From a virus (lineage: Duplodnaviria > Caudoviricetes): a DNA stretch of 24,084 nucleotides. The notes beneath the pieces were generated by a model. It worked only from the letters and a program-made list of their open reading frames with translations, was not told where the DNA came from and did no database searches. Every line of letters begins with the position of its first letter. The first letter of the stretch is position 1. A program made the position numbers and the translations under genes. The DNA is taken from IMG/VR virus record IMGVR_UViG_3300025098_000283, positions 1-24,084 of that record; one strand, 5' to 3'. Of this stretch, positions 1,769-23,231 are shown one piece after another.

Positions 1769-2410
1769 TTATGAAGTTGTATTACTGGAGTAGGTGTCTT
1801 GGTAGTCAGTAAATGTGTATGTTGGTTGTATCGACTGGACACCACCATTAGTCTCTTGATCATTAGCTTGCTCTTGAACTTCTAATAGAAACTGATTGAA
1901 CTTAGTCTCAAAGATATCTGAACGAGTATCTAGGTAGTAGTCGGCTGCATAGGTTAGAGCTGCATAGATCAAAAGATCAGGAGCTACCTTAGCCAGTGCA
2001 TTTTCGTCACTGTCAGCAGACATAGGGTTAAACTCAGAGTAGTAGTATAGGTATAAAGTACCTGAGCTAGGCTGTGGGAACAGGTAAACCTTCTCCTGTT
2101 GCCTTGTAAAGTTAGTAGAGTTACCTGAGTAGTTATTGGCATTGAGTGACCTAAACTTACTCATAGGCACTCTAGATAACTCAGTGTTTGCATAGTAGAT
2201 ACTTACGATCTCTATGAAGTCATTGGGTAGAGTAATAAACTCAGTCTGTGACGACAACGTATAGGATGCCACCTTTTCTTGCATAGGTGTTCTTAACTGT
2301 CGTTGTACACGAGCCATACCCTGATCGATAAAGGTAGTTGTTAAAGCTGTGGTGATGTCTGAACGGTTAAGCACGTTATTAAAATGGGTCTTTAAATCAC
2401 CATAGTTCAT
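1769..2410 (-). CDS. Head-tail adaptor / tail tubular protein A-like (213 aa)
   Basis: MNYGDLK...LNRSDIT...FID...R.QRQLR N-terminus and APDLLIYAAL motif match podovirus adaptors. Size and position downstream of the capsid gene fit. Confidence 0.7.
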   Translation of the reverse strand: MNYGDLKTHFNNVLNRSDITTALTTTFIDQGMARVQRQLRTPMQEKVASYTLSSQTEFITLPNDFIEIVSIYYANTELSRVPMSKFRSLNANNYSGNSTNFTRQQEKVYLFPQPSSGTLYLYYYSEFNPMSADSDENALAKVAPDLLIYAALTYAADYYLDTRSDIFETKFNQFLLEVQEQANDQETNGGVQSIQPTYTFTDYQDTYSSNTTS

Positions 2411-2413
2411 ATC

Positions 2414-2554
2414 TTATCCTTTTTTAGTTTTCTTTTTAGTCTTAGGGAAACCTGCCTTCATGTTGCTATAGGCTTTACTTGATATTGTTGACTTTGACTT
2501 AGGTCTAGAATTACCTGCCTTTTTACGTTTGTTAATATTTTCATATAGTGACAT
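2414..2554 (-). CDS. Small, highly basic protein (46 aa; not in ORF track)
   Basis: ATG immediately follows the upstream TAA. MSLYENINKRKKAGNSRPKSKSTISSKAYSNMKAGFPKTKKKTKKG*. It fills the gap to the adaptor gene exactly, and that gene's AAGGA RBS lies in the last codons. Confidence 0.75.
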   Translation of the reverse strand: MSLYENINKRKKAGNSRPKSKSTISSKAYSNMKAGFPKTKKKTKKG

Positions 2555-2881
2555 TTATAAACTCTTCTCTGTTGTTAAGAATGCATCTAAGTTTTCACTC
2601 TTAAGTTTGTTGACTATTTGTTTAGCTGTGATGTTTTTGTCGGTCATAATGTTAAAACCTTCTCGCATCCACTTCTCGATAACTGCTGTAGGTATTGAGG
2701 CAACCTTCATCATCTCACCCTCTTTTTGTTGGGTGCTGACGTTACGTTGTTCTTTAAGGTTATCTAAATGCCACTGGGGTATCTCTTGTGTATGCCTTCT
2801 AGCTTCTTCACCGACATTGTTAAAAAACTCAGTGTTAACATTAATAATGTTGTTACCTTTTTGGTCTTTATCGTAAATCAT
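2555..2881 (-). CDS. Conserved hypothetical phage protein downstream of the capsid gene (108 aa; start revised from 2938)
   Basis: CAAGGAG RBS precedes the ATG at 2881 (MIYDKDQ...). The track's 19-codon extension runs through a hairpin. VASIPxxVxxxW motif present. Confidence 0.7.
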   Translation of the reverse strand: MIYDKDQKGNNIINVNTEFFNNVGEEARRHTQEIPQWHLDNLKEQRNVSTQQKEGEMMKVASIPTAVIEKWMREGFNIMTDKNITAKQIVNKLKSENLDAFLTTEKSL

Positions 2882-2959: not shown

Positions 2960-3179
2960 TTAGGACAAGCCTGTGATCATATGGCTGTCGCCAAAGTTCA
3001 TGTGCTTTAATCCTACTTCCATGACAACAGCATGTTTGTCACTGTCACCTGTCTTAGCAAGTAGAGTTCTGCTAACAGGACGTAGTACAGTTTGTCTAAA
3101 CATTGCAGGGTCAATTAAGAATGCATGTGTAGATAACTGGTGTCGGTTAAGTACAATCTTGTACTCACCAAATGGCGAT
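2960..3179 (-). CDS. Major capsid protein, exon 2 (C-terminal 72 aa)
   Basis: After the intron's terminal G the frame reads (V)SPFGEYKIVLNRHQLSTHAFLIDPAMFRQTVLRPVSRTLLAKTGDSDKHAVVMEVGLKHMNFGDSHMITGLS*. LAKTGDS and YxSxFG are hallmarks of DUF5309/SU10-type capsids. There is no start or RBS of its own. Confidence 0.93.
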
Positions 3180-3464
3180 CATTTTATATTCAATTAAAGT
3201 CGTTAATTTTAATCGGCTTATTAAGCTCCTGCATCTTTCGTATGCAGATTAGACTATATCATCATCCTCTTTTTGAGGAGCTAGGCACTTCCACCCACTT
3301 GGGTGTACGGACTTCATCTTCTCAAATTAATGAGATGGTATGTCCTAGTCGTTGAACCTTCCAAGAGATCACTCTCTTAGCTTGGCTGCTGATTGTCATA
3401 TCCTTTCGGACTTAGATTTCCCAGTCAATTCACCTAGTTTTATTTACGCTATGCCACTTCTTTA
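3180..3464 (-). ncRNA. Group I self-splicing intron, IA2-like, 285 nt, no homing endonuclease ORF
   Basis: Minus-strand core elements: P AAUUGACUGGGAAA (3430-3417), Q CAAUCAGCAGCCAAG (3395-3381), R AAGGUUCAACGACUAG (3360-3345), S GAUGAUAUAGUCU (3263-3251). P1 pairs exon UUUACGU with IGS GCGUAAA (U.G at the splice site). P3 is CUAGGU/GCCUAG, and P7.1, P7.2, P8 and P9 hairpins are present. Terminal G at 3180. Removal restores the reading frame. Confidence 0.95.
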
Positions 3465-4132
3465 ACGTAAAGGTCAACCACGTTAACTAATGTCTTAGTT
3501 CCATCGTTGAAGTTTCTGTATCTTCCTGAGGCTCCAGTAAACCCTGCAACAATAGTTGCATCTGCAGGTTTAATCATGAAGACATTTGGCTCAGAACCTG
3601 CTGTGTAAGCAGCTTGGGCACCAACTAAGAATTTAGCCTCAGTTAATGCATCAGTAGAGTTAGAACCTGCATCAGTCGAATTAGTAATAATTGCTGAGGC
3701 TGAGGCCATTTCTCTAGCTGCAGAACTTGAACCTGCTGCTGCTGCATTATGCTGTCCAACGTATGCAAATTCTTGATGCTTCTTGAGCAATTTCAAGGTT
3801 TTTCCTAACTGGTAGGCCGTTTCTTTAGCGCGGCCATATGTCTTAATGGCATCGGCAGTTGCTGATACCTGAAAGGCAAGTCCAAGGATTTGAGTTGTAC
3901 CAGTTCTTAGAGTGGTTGCAGATTGAGTTCCGATTGTAAAATCAGCTCCCTCGACAAGTTTATTGTCAGCACCTGCTCCAATGGTATCTTCCTGATAGTC
4001 GTATGTTCTAGCAGAGACTTTCTCTGTTTTGATCATAGTTGTAAAAGGGGTGTCTGTAGGTGAGATGTTTGAGATAATATCTGAAACGTCTTCAGCCTTA
4101 CCGACTTGGTCGTAAGTAGTATATATTGCCAT
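3465..4132 (-). CDS. Major capsid protein, exon 1 (spliced product 295 aa; DUF5309/SU10-like)
   Basis: YDQVGKAEDVSDIISNISPTDTPF, EGAD, TQI...VSATADA...YGRAKETAYQL motifs. Follows the scaffold gene with an AAGGA RBS. The track's terminal KEVA* is intron-derived. Confidence 0.93.
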
Positions 4133-4164: not shown

Positions 4165-5196
4165 TTATGCTTCCCAACGAGACATGATCACTGAAGAAAT
4201 ATCATCTAAGTCCACTCCTTGATTACCTAGAGCTGCTGTTGCATCTTTTAGTTTAGATGCTTTTCTGCTTGTAGCTGTAGGAGGAGCCTTTTTGGATCGA
4301 AGGATTTTAGTTGAAGTAGGGTTCTTTTTCTTAGTCGTTGCTACTTTCTTACCTTGGTCATAAAGACGAGCCTTATTGATAAGTTGGATCACCTTAGGAT
4401 CGACATATCTATTAACCTCGTTTTCAGGTAGACCTATGGAAATAGCATACCCACGGATATCATTATAAAGTTGGTTGCTCCAGTTAGGAACTTCTTCCTG
4501 TAAAACCTTTACACACTCTTTAGCTGCAGACTGTAATTGAGTTTGTTGTTGGTTTTGTAGGTCTTTATAATAGACATCAGCTTCTTCGCTTAAGAACTTA
4601 TATTCTTCTTCAACTGCCTTATACTCTTTGCGAAGTTGAGCGAAATCTTCTGTAGACATTGTCTTACTTGCGACCAACATGTCGACTTCTTGATATGGCT
4701 TAAACTTAGCTTGAGCTTTCTCCAACATCTTTTGGAGAACGACACTAGACTTAGAAAGGCTATCTTCAGCATCTTTTCGCTGTTTAGCCACTTCCTGAGA
4801 CTTTCTTGTGAGAGCAGCTTCTTGTCCGTAAAGTCTCTTAAGATCTTTAACAGATGCCTGAACTGTTTCACCGTCAACTTGAATCTCAACTTGAGCATCG
4901 TCACTAAGAACAGGGTTCTTGTCTTCAACATCATCGTCTTCATCCTCATTTTCAGTTTCAGTTTCATCAGGGTCTGTCTCCTCATCTTCTTCGACCTCGT
5001 CTTCGTCTGTCTCTTCCTGTAAATCGCCATTAGTCTCTTCGTCTTCTTCTTCGACGACTTCAGGTTCATCCTCGGTCTCAGGGTCTGATGGCTCTTTTTC
5101 AGCGTCTTCCCATCGTGCAAGAATGGCATCTTCAGCCTCGTCTATTGTTAAGGCTGTTGAATCTTTTTCATTATTTTGGGGTTGTACGTCACTCAT
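4165..5196 (-). CDS. Capsid scaffolding protein (343 aa)
   Basis: Very acidic N-terminus, VDGETVQASVKDLKRLYGQEAALTRKSQEVA motif, coiled coils, basic C-terminal region. Sits directly upstream of the capsid gene. Confidence 0.85.
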   Translation of the reverse strand: MSDVQPQNNEKDSTALTIDEAEDAILARWEDAEKEPSDPETEDEPEVVEEEDEETNGDLQEETDEDEVEEDEETDPDETETENEDEDDDVEDKNPVLSDDAQVEIQVDGETVQASVKDLKRLYGQEAALTRKSQEVAKQRKDAEDSLSKSSVVLQKMLEKAQAKFKPYQEVDMLVASKTMSTEDFAQLRKEYKAVEEEYKFLSEEADVYYKDLQNQQQTQLQSAAKECVKVLQEEVPNWSNQLYNDIRGYAISIGLPENEVNRYVDPKVIQLINKARLYDQGKKVATTKKKNPTSTKILRSKKAPPTATSRKASKLKDATAALGNQGVDLDDISSVIMSRWEA

Positions 5197-5203
5197 GATA
5201 ATA

Positions 5204-5473
5204 CTATTCCTCTTGACTGTTGTTGTCTTTTTCGTTCTTCGCTAGGATCTCGTCTCTGACCTGAACGTCTTGTCTCAGGGTGTTAACGATGTCTACCAAA
5301 GCTCGATAATGGTCATAGGATTTGTCTCGTGCTTTTGTATCTTCAGGCTTTGAATTTACAAATGCTTGGAAACTTCCTTCCACCATTCTGTTAATTGTCC
5401 TGTTAAAAACTTCATTATTAACAAGGTCATCAGCATCGTTTCCAAAGCTGATTAGGGTCTCTTCTTTAGTCAT
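5204..5473 (-). CDS. Conserved small protein between portal and scaffold (89 aa)
   Basis: TAGGAGAG RBS. Helical protein at a position commonly occupied by such a gene in P22/SU10-like head modules. Confidence 0.7.
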   Translation of the reverse strand: MTKEETLISFGNDADDLVNNEVFNRTINRMVEGSFQAFVNSKPEDTKARDKSYDHYRALVDIVNTLRQDVQVRDEILAKNEKDNNSQEE

Positions 5474-5546
5474 TTTACTCTCCTAAAATGGTTGTTAAAC
5501 GTGATTTAAGCCTCACTGAGCTATGGTAAAATCTTGGTATATGATA

Positions 5547-7583
5547 TTACCCTGTAGGCGAGGCTATTCCTCGTACATCTTCTGCTGCTTTTAGAACCTC
5601 TAATTCAGCTTCATCTATGTACTTCTTGTGAGCGAATTGCTCCTCTTTTAGATCTTGATTGTCGGAGGATAGAGCATGTGAACTCTCGGCCTTCATCTTA
5701 TCAAGCTCCAATTTCATTTGGGTCATTTGACCATCCATCTGTGCTTTCATCTCAGCTAACTGCTGTTGACGTTCCTGTAACTCAAGTTGTTTCTGAGCCA
5801 TTTGAGTTTGCATTTGTTGCATTGGATCAGGTTGAGGTTCAGGTAATTGATCAGGTGGTGTTAAGAACTCTTCGACATTTAATATGCCTTGTTTCTGTAA
5901 TGCCTCTTTCATCATGTTAAATCTATTAGGCATTTGATACATAGGTTGTAAGTTTGGATCCTGAGAGAATAGGGTATGGAGTTGCATAAACTTAGCTGCA
6001 TCTCTTTCTTGTTCACCGTAGCCGAGCTTAAGCTCAACCATTACATCTCTTTTTTCTTTCCAACTTGTAGGGTCTATTTCTACAAAGTTACCTGCAATAT
6101 CGACAACCTTTTCATACTGTTCATTCTCGACAACAAGCCTGTAAACTTCATGGAATAATGGCTTAAGAAACTGGTTAGCAAAGTTACGAGCTATTATCTT
6201 CTGCCTTTGCTGTGACATTGTAGCTAACTGCTCAACCATTGCTGCTGAGTTTTGTTTGCTTATGGCATCTTTGTTTAGGCCTTGTGATAACTTTGATACA
6301 CCTGTTGTATCTTCTTTATCTTCATCAAGCATCTGTAATGTCTGAAAGATAAATGGGTTTAGAGGTGCCTGAGGCATAGGTGATATTGCATCAGGTCTTG
6401 ATACGTTTACCAAGCCACCAACACGGTTATCTATAAGTTCTCTTGGGTTAGTTAAGCCACCCTTAACAACCATATACCTTGGATTGTTAGTGATAACTGC
6501 ATGGTCTAGAATTGATCTAGTTAATATAGTCCTAGCATTTTGAGTTGCTATAACCTTAGATGCAAAGTTAGAACCGTAAAAGGCATGGGGTATAGGTAGT
6601 GGTGTGAATACAATAAATGGCTTTCTATCGACTTCTACACACTCAAGTATAACATTACCTGCTTTACAGACTTTATACAGATAGGCAATACCAGTGCCTT
6701 CTTTGTCTAGCATCATGTAACATTCGTAAACCATGATATCACGGACTTGGTCTTGGTAGCCTTTAGTATCAAAGCCACGACTAGCACCGATACTTTCAAA
6801 CCTTGCGAGTATCTCAGGGTCTGTCTCTACTTCGACATCCTCATGGTCTGATCCTATATCTTTGAGTAATTCTTCTGAGTAACCCATTTCTCTTAACTCA
6901 GTTAAGGTCTTACGAGTTCTATGAGCTACAAAGTTTACGTCATCTAATGACTTAGCCTGTGGTTCGATTAGGAACTCCTCAGGAGCTATTGACTGGATGG
7001 CAACTTGTGATGCATCTCTAGCCATTACAATAGTACCTGATATCAAGCCAACTTCGTTGGTTGTGCTATCGCCTAACTCAACGCCATCCTGTGCAAGCAA
7101 CATGTCTAGCTCATCTTGGTTTACATCGGTAAATTCTTCTTCAATGATTTCTTCTTTCTCATCCCAAAAGACTTTAGCGACACCAACTCTAGCTGTTAAT
7201 CCATCGTGTATAGCTGAGTTCATGACTTCAAAGGAATCATTCTGCCTGAACATTACATAGTCGGTATACTTACTACAAACTTCGGCTGTCTCTACATCGT
7301 CAGCATTCTGAGGTGCAAACTTAACTATGTTATTACCTGCAGCAAAGGTCTCTAATAGAGCTGCCTTTAATGCCTCGACACTGTCATAAACATCCTGTGA
7401 TACGAACTTAGAATTACCATCGTGGGCAGGTCGTGGAAGTGTGGCATTGTAATACTCAGTGACTTTCTTACGTTCTTTAGAAATCTCACTGTCATAATAT
7501 CCAACAGAAGTCTTAATGTTGTTTTCAACCATTACGACAATGTCACTGTCTTCTAGTTTTGAATATTCTTCAATTTTAGCCAT
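5547..7583 (-). CDS. Portal protein (678 aa)
   Basis: SKFVSQDVYDSVE, HDGL...GVAKVFWD, IAPEEFLI and PIPHAFYG motifs, plus a Q-rich coiled-coil C-terminal barrel (P22/phiEco32 type). Follows TerL. Confidence 0.92.
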   Translation of the reverse strand: MAKIEEYSKLEDSDIVVMVENNIKTSVGYYDSEISKERKKVTEYYNATLPRPAHDGNSKFVSQDVYDSVEALKAALLETFAAGNNIVKFAPQNADDVETAEVCSKYTDYVMFRQNDSFEVMNSAIHDGLTARVGVAKVFWDEKEEIIEEEFTDVNQDELDMLLAQDGVELGDSTTNEVGLISGTIVMARDASQVAIQSIAPEEFLIEPQAKSLDDVNFVAHRTRKTLTELREMGYSEELLKDIGSDHEDVEVETDPEILARFESIGASRGFDTKGYQDQVRDIMVYECYMMLDKEGTGIAYLYKVCKAGNVILECVEVDRKPFIVFTPLPIPHAFYGSNFASKVIATQNARTILTRSILDHAVITNNPRYMVVKGGLTNPRELIDNRVGGLVNVSRPDAISPMPQAPLNPFIFQTLQMLDEDKEDTTGVSKLSQGLNKDAISKQNSAAMVEQLATMSQQRQKIIARNFANQFLKPLFHEVYRLVVENEQYEKVVDIAGNFVEIDPTSWKEKRDVMVELKLGYGEQERDAAKFMQLHTLFSQDPNLQPMYQMPNRFNMMKEALQKQGILNVEEFLTPPDQLPEPQPDPMQQMQTQMAQKQLELQERQQQLAEMKAQMDGQMTQMKLELDKMKAESSHALSSDNQDLKEEQFAHKKYIDEAELEVLKAAEDVRGIASPTG

Positions 7584-7585
7584 GT

Positions 7586-9157
7586 TTATACCATTTCCAT
7601 ATAAAATTCATTCCCACTTTCGACAGGATCCCAAGCTCCTTCATGCACATAGTTTGCAAGAGCAAGTGACATAACACAGTCATCAAAACATCCATGTTCG
7701 GCCTCCATAGCACCACTTTCAGTGACTATGTAGGTAAGCATTTCTCTTATTGTGACTTTGTCATTAAGTTCCAACTCATCTTCTCTCATAGAGGCTCTGA
7801 GTTGATCGATGATTAAGGGTTTAGTTTTAACAGTAGTTGTAAAACCAAGTTTCACAGTTTCTCTGTCAGTTATCTTATCGTGTTGCACTTCAGTGTAGAA
7901 GTTGGGGTAGGCTAAGTCTTTACCTAACCTTGTACAAGTCAATATACCGTGTGAGTTATTCTCTACACAGATAAATGCATCGTTGTAGTAGGTTCCCAAG
8001 TGAAACAGTACTGTTGCGAAGTAGTCAGGGTGGACATGGCCTCGCCACGTTGCAACCTGTCTTTTTTTACTATCGAGTACGATGGCCACGGAGTAGTCTC
8101 CGTTCCGTATTCCCATAGATACATCTGCACCAATGACATACTGTTCTCCACTATCGTGTTTGATAAATGTAGTTAATTCACCACGACTATGGTTGACCCA
8201 TTCATCTGTTTCCAGTGCAAGTCTTTCCTCTACGTCTTTAGTGTCAGGTAATAATTTCTGAAGTTGATCAGGGTTAAATACAGGACGACCAGTAGTGAGA
8301 AAGGCCTCATCAGGGTATGATGGGTACTCCTGTTTAAATAAGTCTATACCGTTCTGAGCAATCTTACGTCTACGAAACATAAGCTGTTCATTGTCTAGTT
8401 TAAACTTTTTAACAAGATCCTTTTCATCAGGTGTTCTTTTAAAGTTTTTAGGTACGTCTTCACGATACTCAGGGTCAGTGAACCAAGGAATAAACACTGG
8501 TACATAACCGTTTTTGCCTTCGACTGCACCCTTCCACAGGTCATAAAATATCCCTGAAACACCGTTTGCAGTAGATTCAATGAATATAGACGTATTAGCT
8601 GTGTTCGGTACTGCCTGTGCAAGACCATTCCAAATATCAGTGGCTGAACTCTTAGGCCAAAAAGCAATCTCTGAAGCGTGGCAATTCGTAATCGTCTCGC
8701 CTCTTCCAACGCTATCTCCACCTGCTGTGGCGACCACGAATGAGCTGTCGAGGATGTCAAAACTCAGTTCCCTTCTACTTGAATACTTTGTGTGTGGCTT
8801 AAGTATCTCAGGGCAGTTCTCATGATATCTTTTTGTCATGTCAAACAATGCCCTAGTACTGTCAGCATGATGGGTTATCACCATAGCCTTTCTAGCTTTG
8901 TTTTGTGACACAGAGAAGTATAGGTGACCACCGACATAGGTTGATAAACCCTGTTGTCTAGCCTTAAGAATTATGATCCTTATCTTACCTTCTGTTTTTT
9001 GTTGTTTATCTACTGCCTTCTGAAGTATTTCTTGGGCAGGGTTCAAAGCAAGTGGAGCAATATCACCTGACTTTGTTCTTATCTTTAATGCAGACTTTGA
9101 GTAAAAAGGAAATTCATAAAGAAGTCGTTCTCTAATCTTCTTTAGTTGTGGATCCAT
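7586..9157 (-). CDS. terL: Terminase large subunit (523 aa)
   Basis: LNPAQ Q-motif, Walker A ILKARQQGLST, Walker B CHASE, coupling motif ESTANG, nuclease motifs IGADVS and DDCVMS. Confidence 0.95.
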   Translation of the reverse strand: MDPQLKKIRERLLYEFPFYSKSALKIRTKSGDIAPLALNPAQEILQKAVDKQQKTEGKIRIIILKARQQGLSTYVGGHLYFSVSQNKARKAMVITHHADSTRALFDMTKRYHENCPEILKPHTKYSSRRELSFDILDSSFVVATAGGDSVGRGETITNCHASEIAFWPKSSATDIWNGLAQAVPNTANTSIFIESTANGVSGIFYDLWKGAVEGKNGYVPVFIPWFTDPEYREDVPKNFKRTPDEKDLVKKFKLDNEQLMFRRRKIAQNGIDLFKQEYPSYPDEAFLTTGRPVFNPDQLQKLLPDTKDVEERLALETDEWVNHSRGELTTFIKHDSGEQYVIGADVSMGIRNGDYSVAIVLDSKKRQVATWRGHVHPDYFATVLFHLGTYYNDAFICVENNSHGILTCTRLGKDLAYPNFYTEVQHDKITDRETVKLGFTTTVKTKPLIIDQLRASMREDELELNDKVTIREMLTYIVTESGAMEAEHGCFDDCVMSLALANYVHEGAWDPVESGNEFYMEMV

Positions 9158-20509: not shown

Positions 20510-21075
20510 GGGATTTTCCTTCTCTCATCTAAAAGGTCGAACAACAATAACAACAACAAGAAGGCTTTAACGACTTTTTGAAATTGATTGTATTATTAAG
20601 GGTATGGGGGTCTAAAATCTGAGGTATGGTACCAAAATTAAACGACAATACATGCTAAGTACTTGATATCTATAGTTATCTTAGGTCAACAGACTAGTTA
20701 TCTGATTACGATATAGTACCTATGTATCTTAAGACATTAGACATTAAGTGAAATTTATTCGTAAGGGGTATATTTAAGGTCGTTGAAAATAGGGATCTCA
20801 CTTACTTATTCCCTATAGTTTTATCTCTAGTTAACCCATGTATCACCACTGATACACACACATATCCCTCATTCACTCCTGATCTCTCCTAAGGGTGGAC
20901 ACAGAGATTGCTTAAGTTAACTAAAGGATCAATTAGTGTCTAGTGACACGACATTAGTGACCCCTTGATAACCTGTTACAATAGTATACATTAGTACATG
21001 TGAACTGTTAGAGATAGCCTGTGTTGCCTTGATGTAACAACTTGTAGTTGGCATTCTGACAGTTCACACCTTTAC
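20510..21075. promoter_or_regulatory. Long non-coding control region between the nucleotide-metabolism and virion modules
   Basis: The only large gap in an otherwise tightly packed genome. Contains several inverted repeats, an (AAC)n-like tract at 20541-20559 and GGGTATGGGGG at 20600-20610. Confidence 0.55.
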
Positions 21076-21312
21076 TTAAGTGTCTGATAGAACCCTTATG
21101 TTATCGTCACTGGATGCTTTAGTATCACCCAAGAGTTCTATCTCAGCCTGTAACCTTCTCTTAGGTATCACCTGATAGACTAAGGCCTGTCGTTCCTGTG
21201 TCTCCATCTGTGACCATCTACTGATCTCAAATGTAGTCCTATAACAGGCTGAACACCAGTCTCTCTTGGTGTCCAGTCTGCATACGTTTTTACATGGTGA
21301 TAGCATAGTCAT
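21076..21312 (-). CDS. DUF1289-family Cys-rich protein (78 aa)
   Basis: SPCxxVC...WCxxCYRTxxEIxxW signature. ATGA overlap with the RNR stop. Confidence 0.8.
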   Translation of the reverse strand: MTMLSPCKNVCRLDTKRDWCSACYRTTFEISRWSQMETQERQALVYQVIPKRRLQAEIELLGDTKASSDDNIRVLSDT

Positions 21313-23231
21313 ACGATCTCACAGGCTCCACCGACACAGGCTAACTCCTGTGATCCTATGGTGTTGTCCTGTTGTTCATACTCACTTAGCTTAGACCAGT
21401 CGATGTCCTTAGGCATAGCCTGAGACATGATGTCATACTCAGACTGGTCACAGTCCTGATAGGGTGCCTGTTGGTATGTATGGTCACTGAAGGGTAGGAA
21501 CGACACACCTGACATGTAATCGAAGTTGTCGTATACCCAAGCACCTACATCCAACCACTCATGCTCCTTCACTGACACAGTGACTGATGGCTTGTGTTCA
21601 CACCAGTTCTTCTGATACATGAGCCACAACTCTAGCTGTTCTATAGCTGTCTTATCCGTCCTGAAGACTGCATTACTTGGTGCCTCCATAGGAAAGCTAA
21701 AGACTGTAGTATTGTCAGGGTTCATCACATCGTCCTCAGCAGGTATGCCTTGGTCAACCATCAGCTTAGTCAGTGGATCCTTCTTATCACCTCTGACTGT
21801 TCTTATGTAGTAGGGGTTGTGCCTAGCGTGAATACCTGAGGCAGCATCAACCAACTGACTAACAGTACCTGATGGCTTAACACATGTAATGGCTACTGAC
21901 TGTGGTATGCCTATATCCTTAGCAAACTCAGCGTTAGTCTTTACAGCCTCTTCCTTCAGCTCCTGTAACAATAGGTCAAGTCCTGACTTGTTACCGTTAG
22001 TCAAGTCGTTATCCATGATACCAGTTAACGACACACCAAGCAGTCTTTCCTCTTCACAGTTCTTTCTCCATTCACTGGAGACATACCTGAAGTTAGTCAG
22101 TGACGACTGTATTGTACCTATGATGGTAGCCAGTCGTACCTTGTTTAGTAGTGTCTCTTTTGTATCATGAGGACGTATAACTACCTCACTTAAGTTACAG
22201 AACTCACGGTCTCTTAATATGATCTCAGAGCAGGGGTTAGTTCCAAACTCGTGGTTGTCGATCACTCTGCGACCTGAGGCCTCAGCCATGTTGTTAGCTG
22301 ACTGTCTGTTGAAGATACCACGTTCACCTGACTTAGATTCATACAAGGACTTCCACTCATCCATGAAGATACCTATGTCAGGCTTCTCAGTGTAGACTGC
22401 TGAGTTGTTAGCTAAGGCTCGCTGCTTGTTAGCATTCCACCATTCACCTGACTTAGCGTGTCTCATTCTGTCGTCAGATAGGTTAGACAAGCTGATCAGT
22501 GCTGACCTTCTAACACCACCAACAACCACTACTTCGGCTATCTTACATACAATGTCATGGCACTCCACTGAGTTTAACTTACGACCTGCAGCATTCTTAA
22601 TTACCTGTACAGTAAAGTTAAACAAGTTCTCCAGTGGTGCAGCTCCTGATGCCCTGCCACCGAATGTCTTTAATGGTGAACCTGCAGGTCTAACAAGACT
22701 GGTGTTCCACTCAGGTATCTGACCTATGTATAACAGTCCTATAAGCTCCTTGTAGGCCTTTGCCCAACCTAGCTTACTATCCTTAACTGTTATGACTGTA
22801 TCGCTGTTGTAGAAGCTCTCAGCAACAACTGGTAGCTTGTTTACATTCTGTCTTTCGACACTAAAGCCGACACCAGTTCCATTCATTAATACATACAGTA
22901 TTTCATCGAATGCACCCAGTCTATTTACAGCTACATAGCTACAGTTGTAACCTGCTATGTTTTCCTTCTTAAGTGCCTCACCTGCTGTCATTAGACACCT
23001 CATTGATGGCATAACACTTAAGTTCATAACGGCCTCATGAAGCTCTTGCATAATAGAAGGAGGCACGGAAAAACTATGCTGCTCCATGAGGTGTTCTTTA
23101 AAGAAGTTGAAGTACCTGTCTACTGTCTCACCCCAGTTCTCCCTACGTTGTTCCTCAGGTAACCACCGTGAGTAACGTGATAGATGTATGAACTGCTGAT
23201 ACAGTGACGGTAAGTAATTATCTAATTGCAT
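21309..23231 (-). CDS. nrdJ: Class II adenosylcobalamin-dependent ribonucleotide reductase (640 aa)
   Basis: YNCSY, GGVRRSA, GTNPCSEI (thiyl radical Cys), TCVKPSGTVSQL, WCEHKPS and the C-terminal CVGGAC redox pair. No small-subunit gene is adjacent. Confidence 0.92.
   Translation of the reverse strand: MQLDNYLPSLYQQFIHLSRYSRWLPEEQRRENWGETVDRYFNFFKEHLMEQHSFSVPPSIMQELHEAVMNLSVMPSMRCLMTAGEALKKENIAGYNCSYVAVNRLGAFDEILYVLMNGTGVGFSVERQNVNKLPVVAESFYNSDTVITVKDSKLGWAKAYKELIGLLYIGQIPEWNTSLVRPAGSPLKTFGGRASGAAPLENLFNFTVQVIKNAAGRKLNSVECHDIVCKIAEVVVVGGVRRSALISLSNLSDDRMRHAKSGEWWNANKQRALANNSAVYTEKPDIGIFMDEWKSLYESKSGERGIFNRQSANNMAEASGRRVIDNHEFGTNPCSEIILRDREFCNLSEVVIRPHDTKETLLNKVRLATIIGTIQSSLTNFRYVSSEWRKNCEEERLLGVSLTGIMDNDLTNGNKSGLDLLLQELKEEAVKTNAEFAKDIGIPQSVAITCVKPSGTVSQLVDAASGIHARHNPYYIRTVRGDKKDPLTKLMVDQGIPAEDDVMNPDNTTVFSFPMEAPSNAVFRTDKTAIEQLELWLMYQKNWCEHKPSVTVSVKEHEWLDVGAWVYDNFDYMSGVSFLPFSDHTYQQAPYQDCDQSEYDIMSQAMPKDIDWSKLSEYEQQDNTIGSQELACVGGACEIV

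What the first reader, a model, noticed from the sequence alone, without database searches (positions are those of the whole stretch)
3180..3464. ORF-less group I intron splitting the major capsid protein gene
Seen in sequence: the capsid ORF stops after VDLYV-KEVA, and its missing C-terminus (SPFGEYKIVLNRH...LAKTGDSDK...) resumes 285 nt later. The gap carries canonical P, Q, R and S elements. P1 pairs exon UUUACGU (3471-3465) with GCGUAAA (3449-3443) with a U.G wobble at the splice site. Other helices: P3 CUAGGU/GCCUAG, P5 hairpin UCC-GAAA-GGA, P6a CUAAGAGA/UCUCUUGG, P7 GACUA/UAGUC, P7.1 GGAC..GUCC, P7.2 CACCC-AAGU-GGGUG, P8 UCCUC/GAGGA, P9 CUGCAU/AUGCAG, and a possible P10 (UGGC/GCCA). The intron ends in G at 3180. 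Joining GU to A gives GUA (Val) and the motif DLYVSPFG, 295 aa in total. Established: P7.1 plus P7.2 mark subgroup IA2, and the classic phage group I introns sit mostly in DNA-metabolism genes (td, nrdB, nrdD, DNA pol), with some in psbA, lysin or terminase genes. Inference: an intron in the most abundantly required virion gene of a small podovirus is unusual, and automated annotation would miscall the gene as truncated.
Basis: partly seen in the sequence, partly recalled or inferred. Interest (0 to 1): 0.92.

Follow-up and report, generated by a model that had tools for sequence, protein, structure and literature searches.

The report
Self-splicing intron in marine phage capsid
A 285-base group I intron with no gene of its own splits the capsid gene of a marine phage and is likely removed by self-splicing; capsid-gene introns are already known, but here dozens of related gene-less introns occupy nine sites of the same gene and appear to move between phages with no endonuclease found to carry them.

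Summary
Window 3464-3180 (minus strand) is a group I intron (RF00028, 75 bits) with IA2 anatomy. Both exons match consecutive parts of the SU10 capsid profile, intron-less alleles at 96-98% identity encode the uninterrupted 295-aa protein, and one low-depth seawater RNA contig skips exactly these 285 bases.

The claim that this is unusual is overstated. Capsid-gene introns are in print (Tuc2009, LittleE, crAss-like phages), and this scan has noted several, one probably of this same family.

What I add is the population picture. The same capsid gene carries 75 introns (51 distinct, 232-302 nt, all ORF-less) at nine sites, up to four per gene. In eight intron-bearing genomes, 10 of 10 RF00028 hits lie in this gene. 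Guide sequences co-vary with the exons. Introns 92-100% identical sit in genes 63-78% identical, with short patches of foreign flank. No HNH endonuclease was found in ten genomes.

Best reading: an efficient ribozyme, spread by short-patch DNA recombination; an unseen homing nuclease is the main rival. Verdict: new member of a known kind, with a testable mobility puzzle.

The parts
3465..4132 (-). Major capsid protein exon 1 (codons 1-222 plus two bases of Val223); ends in U
   Evidence: Pfam SU10_MCP profile 3-219/292, E 8.8e-44; phrog_1328; PDB 7z45 and 9ny2
3180..3464 (-). ORF-less group I intron, 285 nt, IA2-type, ends in G
   Evidence: RF00028 75.2 bits; boundaries; RNA contig joint 3179/3465
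3443..3471 (-). P1: exon 3471-3465 paired with guide 3449-3443, U.G at the 5' splice site. An in-frame TAG (3451-3449) ends exon-1 read-through five codons into the intron
   Evidence: all 77 cells form standard pairs in 11 aligned introns, one position changes U-A to G-C
3451..3456 (-). 5' part of the internal guide that pairs with exon 2 bases 3179-3173 (P10)
   Evidence: duplex -7.4 kcal/mol; guide and 3' exon co-vary across 13 distinct pairs, 0 of 20000 permutations as low
3281..3437 (-). P3 (3437-3432 with 3286-3281), enclosing P4, P5 and P6 (about 3427-3356)
   Evidence: P3 paired in 66 of 66 cells with compensatory changes
3252..3350 (-). P7 (3350-3346 with 3256-3252), the guanosine-binding helix; P8 at 3279-3265
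   Evidence: P7 invariant in 11 of 11 aligned introns; role of P7 from PMC3984707
3292..3345 (-). P7.1 (3345-3309, with an extra inner hairpin) and P7.2 (3305-3292)
   Evidence: P7.2 paired in 55 of 55 cells with compensatory changes
3191..3247 (-). P9 (3247-3229), P9.1 (3226-3216), P9.2 (3215-3191)
   Evidence: minimum-free-energy and centroid folds
2960..3179 (-). Major capsid protein exon 2 (last base of Val223, 72 codons, stop); no start codon in frame at its 5' end
   Evidence: Pfam SU10_MCP profile 221-291/292, E 7.4e-17; PDB 7z45 residues 276-337
4165..9157 (-). Upstream head module: terminase large subunit, SU10-type portal, scaffold
1769..2881 (-). Downstream 108-aa gene (phrog_3982, unknown function) and SU10 adaptor; neither matches a nuclease family

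Best explanation
[quoted passage not shown] Steps: (1) shown in sequence: ribosomes on unspliced RNA meet a stop five codons into the intron; (2) inferred from established group I chemistry: P1 sets the U.G 5' site, a guanosine bound in P7 cuts there, P10 aligns exon 2 and the exons join at the terminal G; (3) weakly shown: one RNA contig holds the exact joined form; (4) shown: the intron is a presence/absence polymorphism, one of nine occupied sites in this gene across the clade; (5) inferred, about 50% likely: having no endonuclease, it spreads and is lost by short-patch homologous recombination between co-infecting or resident phages, carrying 10-100 nt of exon flank, and persists because splicing is efficient enough to be nearly neutral.
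For: RF00028 75.2 bits. The exons match profile 3-219 and 221-291 of 292. Intron-less alleles L006, L008 and L010 give an unbroken 295 aa at 96-98% identity. RNA run X2 has a contig joining 3179 to 3465 with no letters between and 0 other letters on its 43-nt exon-2 side, where the intron-less allele differs at three or more places, plus a second contig inside the intron. 7 of 7 DNA stretches with this exon-2 start carry the intron (6 distinct contigs, one probably the window's own). 40 of 40 stretches found by a P1 motif are 241-285-nt inserts at this site with U and G ends. Compensatory changes occur in P1, P3, P6a, P7.1, P7.2 and P8. P10 co-varies at site 223 (0 of 20000) and site 19 (2 of 20000). 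For spread: site-223 presence needs 11 changes on the capsid tree, at least 7 forced (quick tree). Introns 92-100% identical lie in genes 63-78% identical. In 13 intron/empty pairs, differences are 11.5% at -24..-8 and 8.1% at +8..+24, outside the pairing windows, against 4.0% beyond 48 nt. L110 and L092 differ at six bases, all within -8..+16 of the site.
Against: The spliced form rests on one contig of depth 2.7 in 1 of 4 runs laid. It has 8 other letters in exon 1 whose places were not shown and a 12-letter loose end, and RNA libraries can hold DNA. The other three runs showed the intron-less allele. Empty alleles with intron-type flanks exist at other sites (L035 against L051, 0 differences within 12 nt; L101 against L077, 1), so a precisely intron-less DNA allele with the window's flanks is not excluded. 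P10 co-variation was not seen at site 107 (7934 of 20000; the exon there is nearly invariant). P5, P8 and P9 columns were partly misaligned. The window's intron has a bulged A in P4 and is only 60-68% identical to other site-223 introns. No in vitro splicing was run. The flank test treats bases as independent, the 13 pairs were hand-picked one per lineage, and the +25..+48 bin shows no excess (1.6%). Direction (gain or loss) is not shown.
Confidence: 0.9

Rival explanations
1. The intron is real, but its spread is ordinary homing: a free-standing or intron-borne endonuclease, rare or now lost, cuts empty alleles, and repair copies the intron with its flanks (collaborative or trans homing).
For: Flank patches and near-identical introns in divergent genes are what homing leaves. 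Collaborative homing is described in PMC3984707. G001 has a 123-aa T5orf172/GIY-YIG-like ORF. About 18 kb of the window's own genome is missing.
Against: HNH (PF01844) and HNH_3 (PF13392) matched 0 of 10 genomes; T5orf172 matched 0 of 5 further genomes. The G001 ORF lies about 8 kb from the capsid gene, beside the integrase. All 27 gaps in the exon-2 scan are 241-308 nt. 1 of 37 site-107 introns has an ORF, and it matches no nuclease family. Nine sites would need several specificities. No comparable depletion of matching codons was seen at sites 19 and 107.
Confidence: 0.3
2. New sites arise by reverse splicing into the very abundant capsid mRNA, followed by reverse transcription and recombination. 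This would explain why only the capsid gene is hit.
For: 10 of 10 RF00028 hits in eight intron-bearing genomes lie in the capsid gene, and the window's RNR, terminase and portal genes have none. The L075 intron at Ile23 re-uses the 5-nt target and guide of the Ile19 introns four codons away and groups with them. Introns at different sites are related and sites are not monophyletic. Two near-clean gains or losses exist (L077/L101, L051/L035).
Against: Reverse splicing predicts no exon co-conversion (PMC2504315), yet most pairs show flank patches. [quoted passage not shown] No reverse transcriptase appeared among 99 ORFs scanned from four genomes. The genomes were reached through capsid introns, so the capsid bias is partly ascertainment, and RF00028 can miss ORF-split introns.
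Confidence: 0.15
3. [quoted passage not shown]
For: It sits in the most needed virion gene. In all 51 distinct introns an in-frame stop comes within 13 codons, in 34 within 5. Carriers such as L096 and L110 tolerate four introns.
Against: Early stops are a general folding aid (PMC3984707). Near-identical intron-less alleles are the majority (106 of 119 stretches lack the site-223 intron). Scattered sites and patchy presence fit drift or selfish spread better.
Confidence: 0.07
4. The insert is not removed: the gene is dead, the 227-aa product suffices, or the contig is an artefact.
For: No experiment on this molecule; a bulge in P4.
Against: The same intron (0-1 differences) lies in at least five other contigs. 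Exon 2 is intact and matches the last quarter of the profile and solved capsids. Homologues run to about 290-305 codons. Compensatory covariation and the joined RNA contig.
Confidence: 0.02

Closest known systems
Group I intron in the major head gene of Lactococcus phage Tuc2009 (orf37/orf39, AF109874)
   Same: Splits a major capsid gene; GenBank note says the parts are linked after excision; its 3' core is 73% identical over 123 nt to this intron.
   Different: Carries a 933-nt ORF (orf38); Gram-positive host; different insertion position (after about 55 codons).
Cluster J mycobacteriophage introns: LittleE capsid (819 bp) and BAKA/Optimus tail (265 bp, ORF-less) (PMC3706429; abstract and passages seen)
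   Same: Intron in a major capsid gene, U and G ends, splicing shown by RT-PCR and protein sequence; a short ORF-less relative in another virion gene.
   Different: The LittleE intron encodes a putative homing endonuclease; single introns in a few genomes, not nine sites of one gene.
Capsid-gene introns of crAss-like phages, Delta and Zeta groups (PMC7886860; passages)
   Same: Several group I introns in one capsid gene of uncultured phages.
   Different: Found through intron-encoded protein domains, mostly endonucleases; large gut phages with introns in many core genes.
Staphylococcus phage Twort orf142 introns (PMC10136302, PMC3073962; passages)
   Same: Three group I introns in one gene, two highly similar and IA2.
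   Different: One large myovirus; exon skipping was shown there and not tested here. That these introns lack ORFs is recalled, not seen in the passages.
Bacillus cereus prophage IA2 introns at two sites of the tape-measure gene (PMC2504315; passages)
   Same: Related IA2 introns at different sites of one virion gene, with P1 re-tuned to each site.
   Different: Two main sites in prophages of a Gram-positive host.

Membership tests
Group I intron | Covariance-model match to the P3-P9 core above the curated cut-off | tested here: met
   RF00028 75.2 bits, cut-off 50
Group I intron | 5' exon ends in U paired with G in P1 | tested here: met
   U3465.G3449; 11 of 11 aligned introns
Group I intron | Terminal G, and removal restores the host reading frame | tested here: met
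   G3180; 295 aa, same length as intron-less alleles
Group I intron | P3-P7 pseudoknot with conserved P7 and covarying helices | tested here: met
Group I intron | Excision from RNA in vivo | tested here: inconclusive
   one exact joined contig, depth 2.7, in 1 of 4 RNA runs; DNA origin not excluded
Group I intron | Guanosine-dependent self-splicing without protein | not testable with these tools
   needs an in vitro assay
Subgroup IA2 | Two hairpins P7.1 and P7.2 between P7 and P3 | tested here: met
   feature from PMC4227781; window; two hairpins in 39 of 51 distinct introns, three in 1, 11 unparsed
Subgroup IA2 | Extended P9 domain (P9.0, P9.1, P9.2) | tested here: met
   P9, P9.1 and P9.2 hairpins in the fold; P9.0 not assigned separately
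Subgroup IA2 | Best score to an IA2 model among subgroup models (GISSD) | not testable with these tools
   no subgroup models held; PMC11878797 calls IA2 heterogeneous
Mobile (homing) group I intron | Encodes a homing endonuclease in a loop | tested here: not met
   285 nt, stops in all three sense frames; longest stop-free stretch in 73 introns is 86 aa
Collaborative or trans homing system | Free-standing endonuclease that cuts the empty site | tested here: inconclusive
   no HNH in 0 of 10 genomes; one GIY-YIG-like ORF in G001; the window's genome is incomplete; EDxHD and LAGLIDADG were not searched genome-wide
SU10-type major capsid protein (PF17236) | Profile match over the whole length, in a portal-scaffold-capsid-adaptor module | tested here: met

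The most novel reading that the evidence does not exclude
Marine T7-like temperate podoviruses with SU10-type heads host a self-sustaining guild of endonuclease-free group I introns that targets only the capsid gene, colonises new sites through guide-matching (reverse-splicing-like) hops, swaps cores between sites, and moves between phages 30-40% apart in DNA with no homing nuclease at all. It would be a natural, sampled-in-progress case of ORF-less intron mobility.
Probability: 0.3. Interest if true: 0.72.

Novelty: new member of a known kind. Interest (0 to 1): 0.42.

Why it matters
As a single element it is a correct but ordinary find: it fixes the annotation of a capsid gene used as a marker, and shows that ORF callers break about a quarter of these genes (18 of 74). 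The wider set matters more. How introns without an endonuclease spread is an open question; PMC3984707 says the reverse-splicing route has no direct evidence. This clade offers matched intron-plus and empty alleles that differ by 1-6 bases, nine sites in one 0.9-kb gene, and compact 232-302-nt ribozymes whose guides are re-tuned to each exon, so homing, neutral recombination and reverse splicing can be set against each other directly. I found no paper on introns in this clade (searches; open-access library only). This scan's own notes hold what is probably the same family.

Tried and rejected
Alternative junctions: a one-base shift gives the same protein but ends the intron in A, and the RNA joint fits 3179/3465 only; rejected.

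Search for an endonuclease-bearing version of the intron: none among 40 site-223 stretches (the motif would miss an ORF in L1), 27 gaps in the exon-2 scan (the scan covered 39 of 64 parts of the collection), 25 site-19 stretches where the capsid resumes (of 119 hits, most unrelated chance matches or too short to judge) or 37 site-107 stretches. Seven site-107 stretches first looked long but are short introns in distant capsids.

The Endonuclease VII search rang nowhere, controls included, so it is uninformative.

The RNA joints in X3 and X4 and the loose end in X1 are the intron-less allele, not splicing. The places of the 8 exon-1 differences in the X2 contig remain unknown.

The structure model of an intron-less capsid never finished and is not used. 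Pair counts come from my script on an 11-row alignment, without shuffle controls. The capsid tree is the quick tree; the careful search did not finish. L075 and L082 and partial genes were left out of the codon alignment (86 of 101 genes used).

Host and taxonomy were not resolved: the best cultured capsid matches are under 37% identical; RNR is 62-65% identical to HMO-2011 and Roseobacter phages. PMC10580990 and PMC12350094, passages only, did not bear on this clade. No supplements were read; intron tables in them could list members of this clade.

Full report
**Observation.** The minus strand carries a head module: terminase, SU10-type portal, scaffold, capsid, a 108-aa gene and an SU10 adaptor. 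The capsid ORF stops at 227 codons. Residues 5-222 match Pfam SU10_MCP positions 3-219, and a start-less frame at 3178-2963 matches 221-291 of 292. Both also match solved capsids 7z45 and 9ny2. The 285 nt between them give the only Rfam hit of the window, RF00028 at 75.2 bits. The fold adds P9.1 and P9.2 and beats 100 of 100 shuffles. P7.1 with P7.2 and an extended P9 are the IA2 features given in PMC4227781 (passages). Subgroup models were not available.

**Splice sites.** Among the in-frame joins scanned, U3465/G3180 is the one that gives 295 aa with U and G ends, and it scored best in the identical locus L005. Intron-less alleles at 96-98% amino-acid identity (L006, L008, L010) are unbroken at 295 codons.

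**RNA.** In 1 of 4 RNA runs laid, a 255-nt contig of depth 2.7 joins 3179 to 3465 with nothing between. Its 43-nt exon-2 side has no differences from the window, whereas the intron-less allele differs there at three or more bases, and the same run holds a contig inside the intron. The other three runs show the intron-less allele; one of them also has an unspliced exon-2/intron contig. All 7 DNA stretches with the window's exon-2 start carry the intron (6 distinct contigs, one probably the window's own). This is supportive but thin: one contig, 8 unplaced differences in exon 1, and a possible DNA origin.

**Selection for splicing.** In 11 aligned site-223 introns P7 and P6 are invariant, and P1, P3, P6a, P7.1, P7.2 and P8 show compensatory changes; P5, P8 and P9 columns were partly misaligned. 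The guide segment pairs better with its own 3' exon than with swapped ones: -5.86 against -3.94 kcal/mol over 13 distinct pairs, 0 of 20000 permutations. Site 19 gave 2 of 20000; site 107 was not significant. Related sequences are not independent, so these counts overstate the odds.

**The clade.** A protein scan gave 66 loci and a P1 motif scan 40 stretches, all 241-285-nt inserts at Val223. In 101 genes I mapped 75 introns (73 by script, 2 by hand), 51 distinct, 232-302 nt, at nine sites: codons 18, 19, 23, 26, 51, 56, 87, 107 and 223. L096 and L110 carry four each. The junction script required a U followed by a stop and a terminal G, so those features are not independent findings for the script-mapped introns. 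RF00028 was run on 20 loci and hit 15 places in 13 of them; the 7 without a hit are unbroken genes. An exon-2 motif scan blind to introns found the site-223 intron in 13 of 119 stretches (9 of 114 judged by script, plus 4 of 5 short ones) and at least one insertion in 18 of 74 full genes. These are redundant contigs, not species. The site-107 intron also occurs in capsids 30-38% identical and, with a related P1, in GenBank phage C72C1, annotated as two pieces. Four near-complete relatives encode T7-like RNA polymerase, integrase, primase-helicase, polA and RNR: about 40-kb temperate podoviruses. The runs that hold the stretch are marine; the host is unknown. In eight intron-bearing genomes all 10 RF00028 hits lie in the capsid gene; the genomes were reached through capsid introns, so this is partly ascertainment.

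**Movement.** Presence at site 223 needs 11 changes on the capsid tree, at least 7 forced by well-supported branches (quick tree, 73 rows), and the sample is enriched for carriers. Introns 92-94% identical lie in genes 63-72% identical (L079/L040, L071/L084, L080/L096). The window's intron is identical in L021, whose gene is 78% identical and switches to the window type within 20 nt upstream of the intron. Against its nearest empty allele L006, the window has no difference in the 110 nt before -9 or after +88, but 11 in between. Over 13 hand-picked pairs, differences are 24% at -7..-1, 13% at +1..+7, 11.5% at -24..-8, 8.1% at +8..+24 and 1.6% at +25..+48, against 4.0% beyond 48 nt. Part of this is forced by P1 and P10; the excess outside them suggests short DNA conversion patches. 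Sites are not monophyletic in the intron tree, and the window's intron falls outside the other site-223 introns, which suggests core exchange or re-invasion.

**No engine found.** HNH and HNH_3 matched 0 of 10 genomes while controls rang. One genome has a T5orf172/GIY-YIG-like ORF far from the capsid gene; five others do not. One of 37 site-107 introns carries an ORF, which matches no family over cut-off. About 18 kb of the window's genome is missing, and EDxHD and LAGLIDADG families were not searched genome-wide.

**Mechanism.** Self-splicing by the standard two-step group I route is about 95% likely; the chemistry is established knowledge (PMC3984707, passages and section 11) and was not tested here. 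For spread I favour short-patch recombination of a nearly neutral insert (about 50%). These phages encode a gp2.5-like annealing protein, and some an endonuclease I; their role here is inference. Unseen or lost homing follows (about 30%), helped by the depletion of the matching TAC codon in empty site-223 alleles (3 of 17 against 67 of 114). Reverse splicing (about 15%) best explains new sites such as the Ile19-to-Ile23 hop and the capsid bias, but predicts no flank conversion (PMC2504315, passages).

**Comparison.** Capsid-gene introns are known: Tuc2009, LittleE with splicing shown and an ORF-less 265-bp relative in a tail gene (PMC3706429, abstract and passages), crAss-like phages (PMC7886860, passages). 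Several related IA2 introns in one gene are known from Twort (PMC10136302, passages) and B. cereus prophages. In Bastillevirinae 32 of 45 introns carry nucleases and most sit in DNA polymerase genes (PMC11878797, passages), which contrasts with this clade. Six searches listed no paper on introns in these marine phages; only listings were seen for most hits. Earlier notes of this scan report capsid genes with 10-16 introns and a 248-nt ORF-less marine capsid intron with five sites (unchecked AI notes, and the LittleE lead came from one). Nothing was on record for this genome or this protein.

**Verdict.** Interest 0.42, carried by the clade-wide, endonuclease-free mobility pattern.

Noticed in passing
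L275:2092-2370 (minus): A site-107 intron of about 519 nt holds a 93-aa ORF in the P8 region that begins with a hydrophobic, signal-peptide-like stretch; no Pfam or PHROG match over cut-off. It is the only ORF-bearing intron seen, and looks like cargo, not a nuclease.
   Followed up: partly
L249, site-107 intron (about 320 nt): It contains a copy of about 17 nt of site-223 exon and the 5' part of a site-223 intron inside it: an inter-intron chimera, or an assembly error (the stretch has NN).
   Followed up: no
L075:1654-1908 (reading strand), capsid codon 23: The intron re-uses the 5-nt exon target and guide of the Ile19 introns four codons downstream; a candidate guide-directed hop.
   Followed up: partly
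L021, capsid gene: Recombinant gene: one lineage upstream, the window's lineage from within 20 nt before the intron and for over 1.1 kb downstream.
   Followed up: partly
L002:2380-2629 (phage C72C1, OQ984150): Unannotated ORF-less group I intron at the Tyr107-equivalent site; the GenBank record splits the capsid and calls spurious ORFs on the opposite strand. If C72C1 is cultured, it could serve for RT-PCR; its record gives no host.
   Followed up: partly
L250, L251, L256, L274, L278, L281, L282: The same site-107 guide occurs in capsids only 30-38% identical to the window's; L274 has a second intron near the Val223-equivalent region.
   Followed up: partly
L082 site-26 intron: Very long branch (1.3) in the intron tree and a different 5' start; possibly another subgroup at a shared site.
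   Followed up: no
L119:2445-2813 (G001): 123-aa T5orf172/GIY-YIG-like ORF just upstream of the integrase.
   Followed up: partly
L122:11094-11336 and L120:2088-2315: Small basic DUF6321-like ORF between the capsid-adjacent gene and the adaptor in some relatives; none of 50 aa or more at that place in the window.
   Followed up: no
window 20510-21075: A 565-nt AT-rich gap without ORFs of 50 aa between the RNR block and the virion genes; no Rfam hit.
   Followed up: no
window 21309-23231 against L119, L121, L123: The window's RNR resembles class II, B12-dependent enzymes, while three relatives carry shorter RNRs (550-589 aa) with a different Pfam profile, suggesting RNR replacement in the clade.
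   Followed up: no
L003, L004, H43-H48: Related introns, apparently unannotated, in polA of Kuravirus VTCCBPA_211 and the primase-helicase of Erwinia phage VL73 (with an HNH ORF), and matches in several Vibrio and Pseudomonas phages.
   Followed up: no
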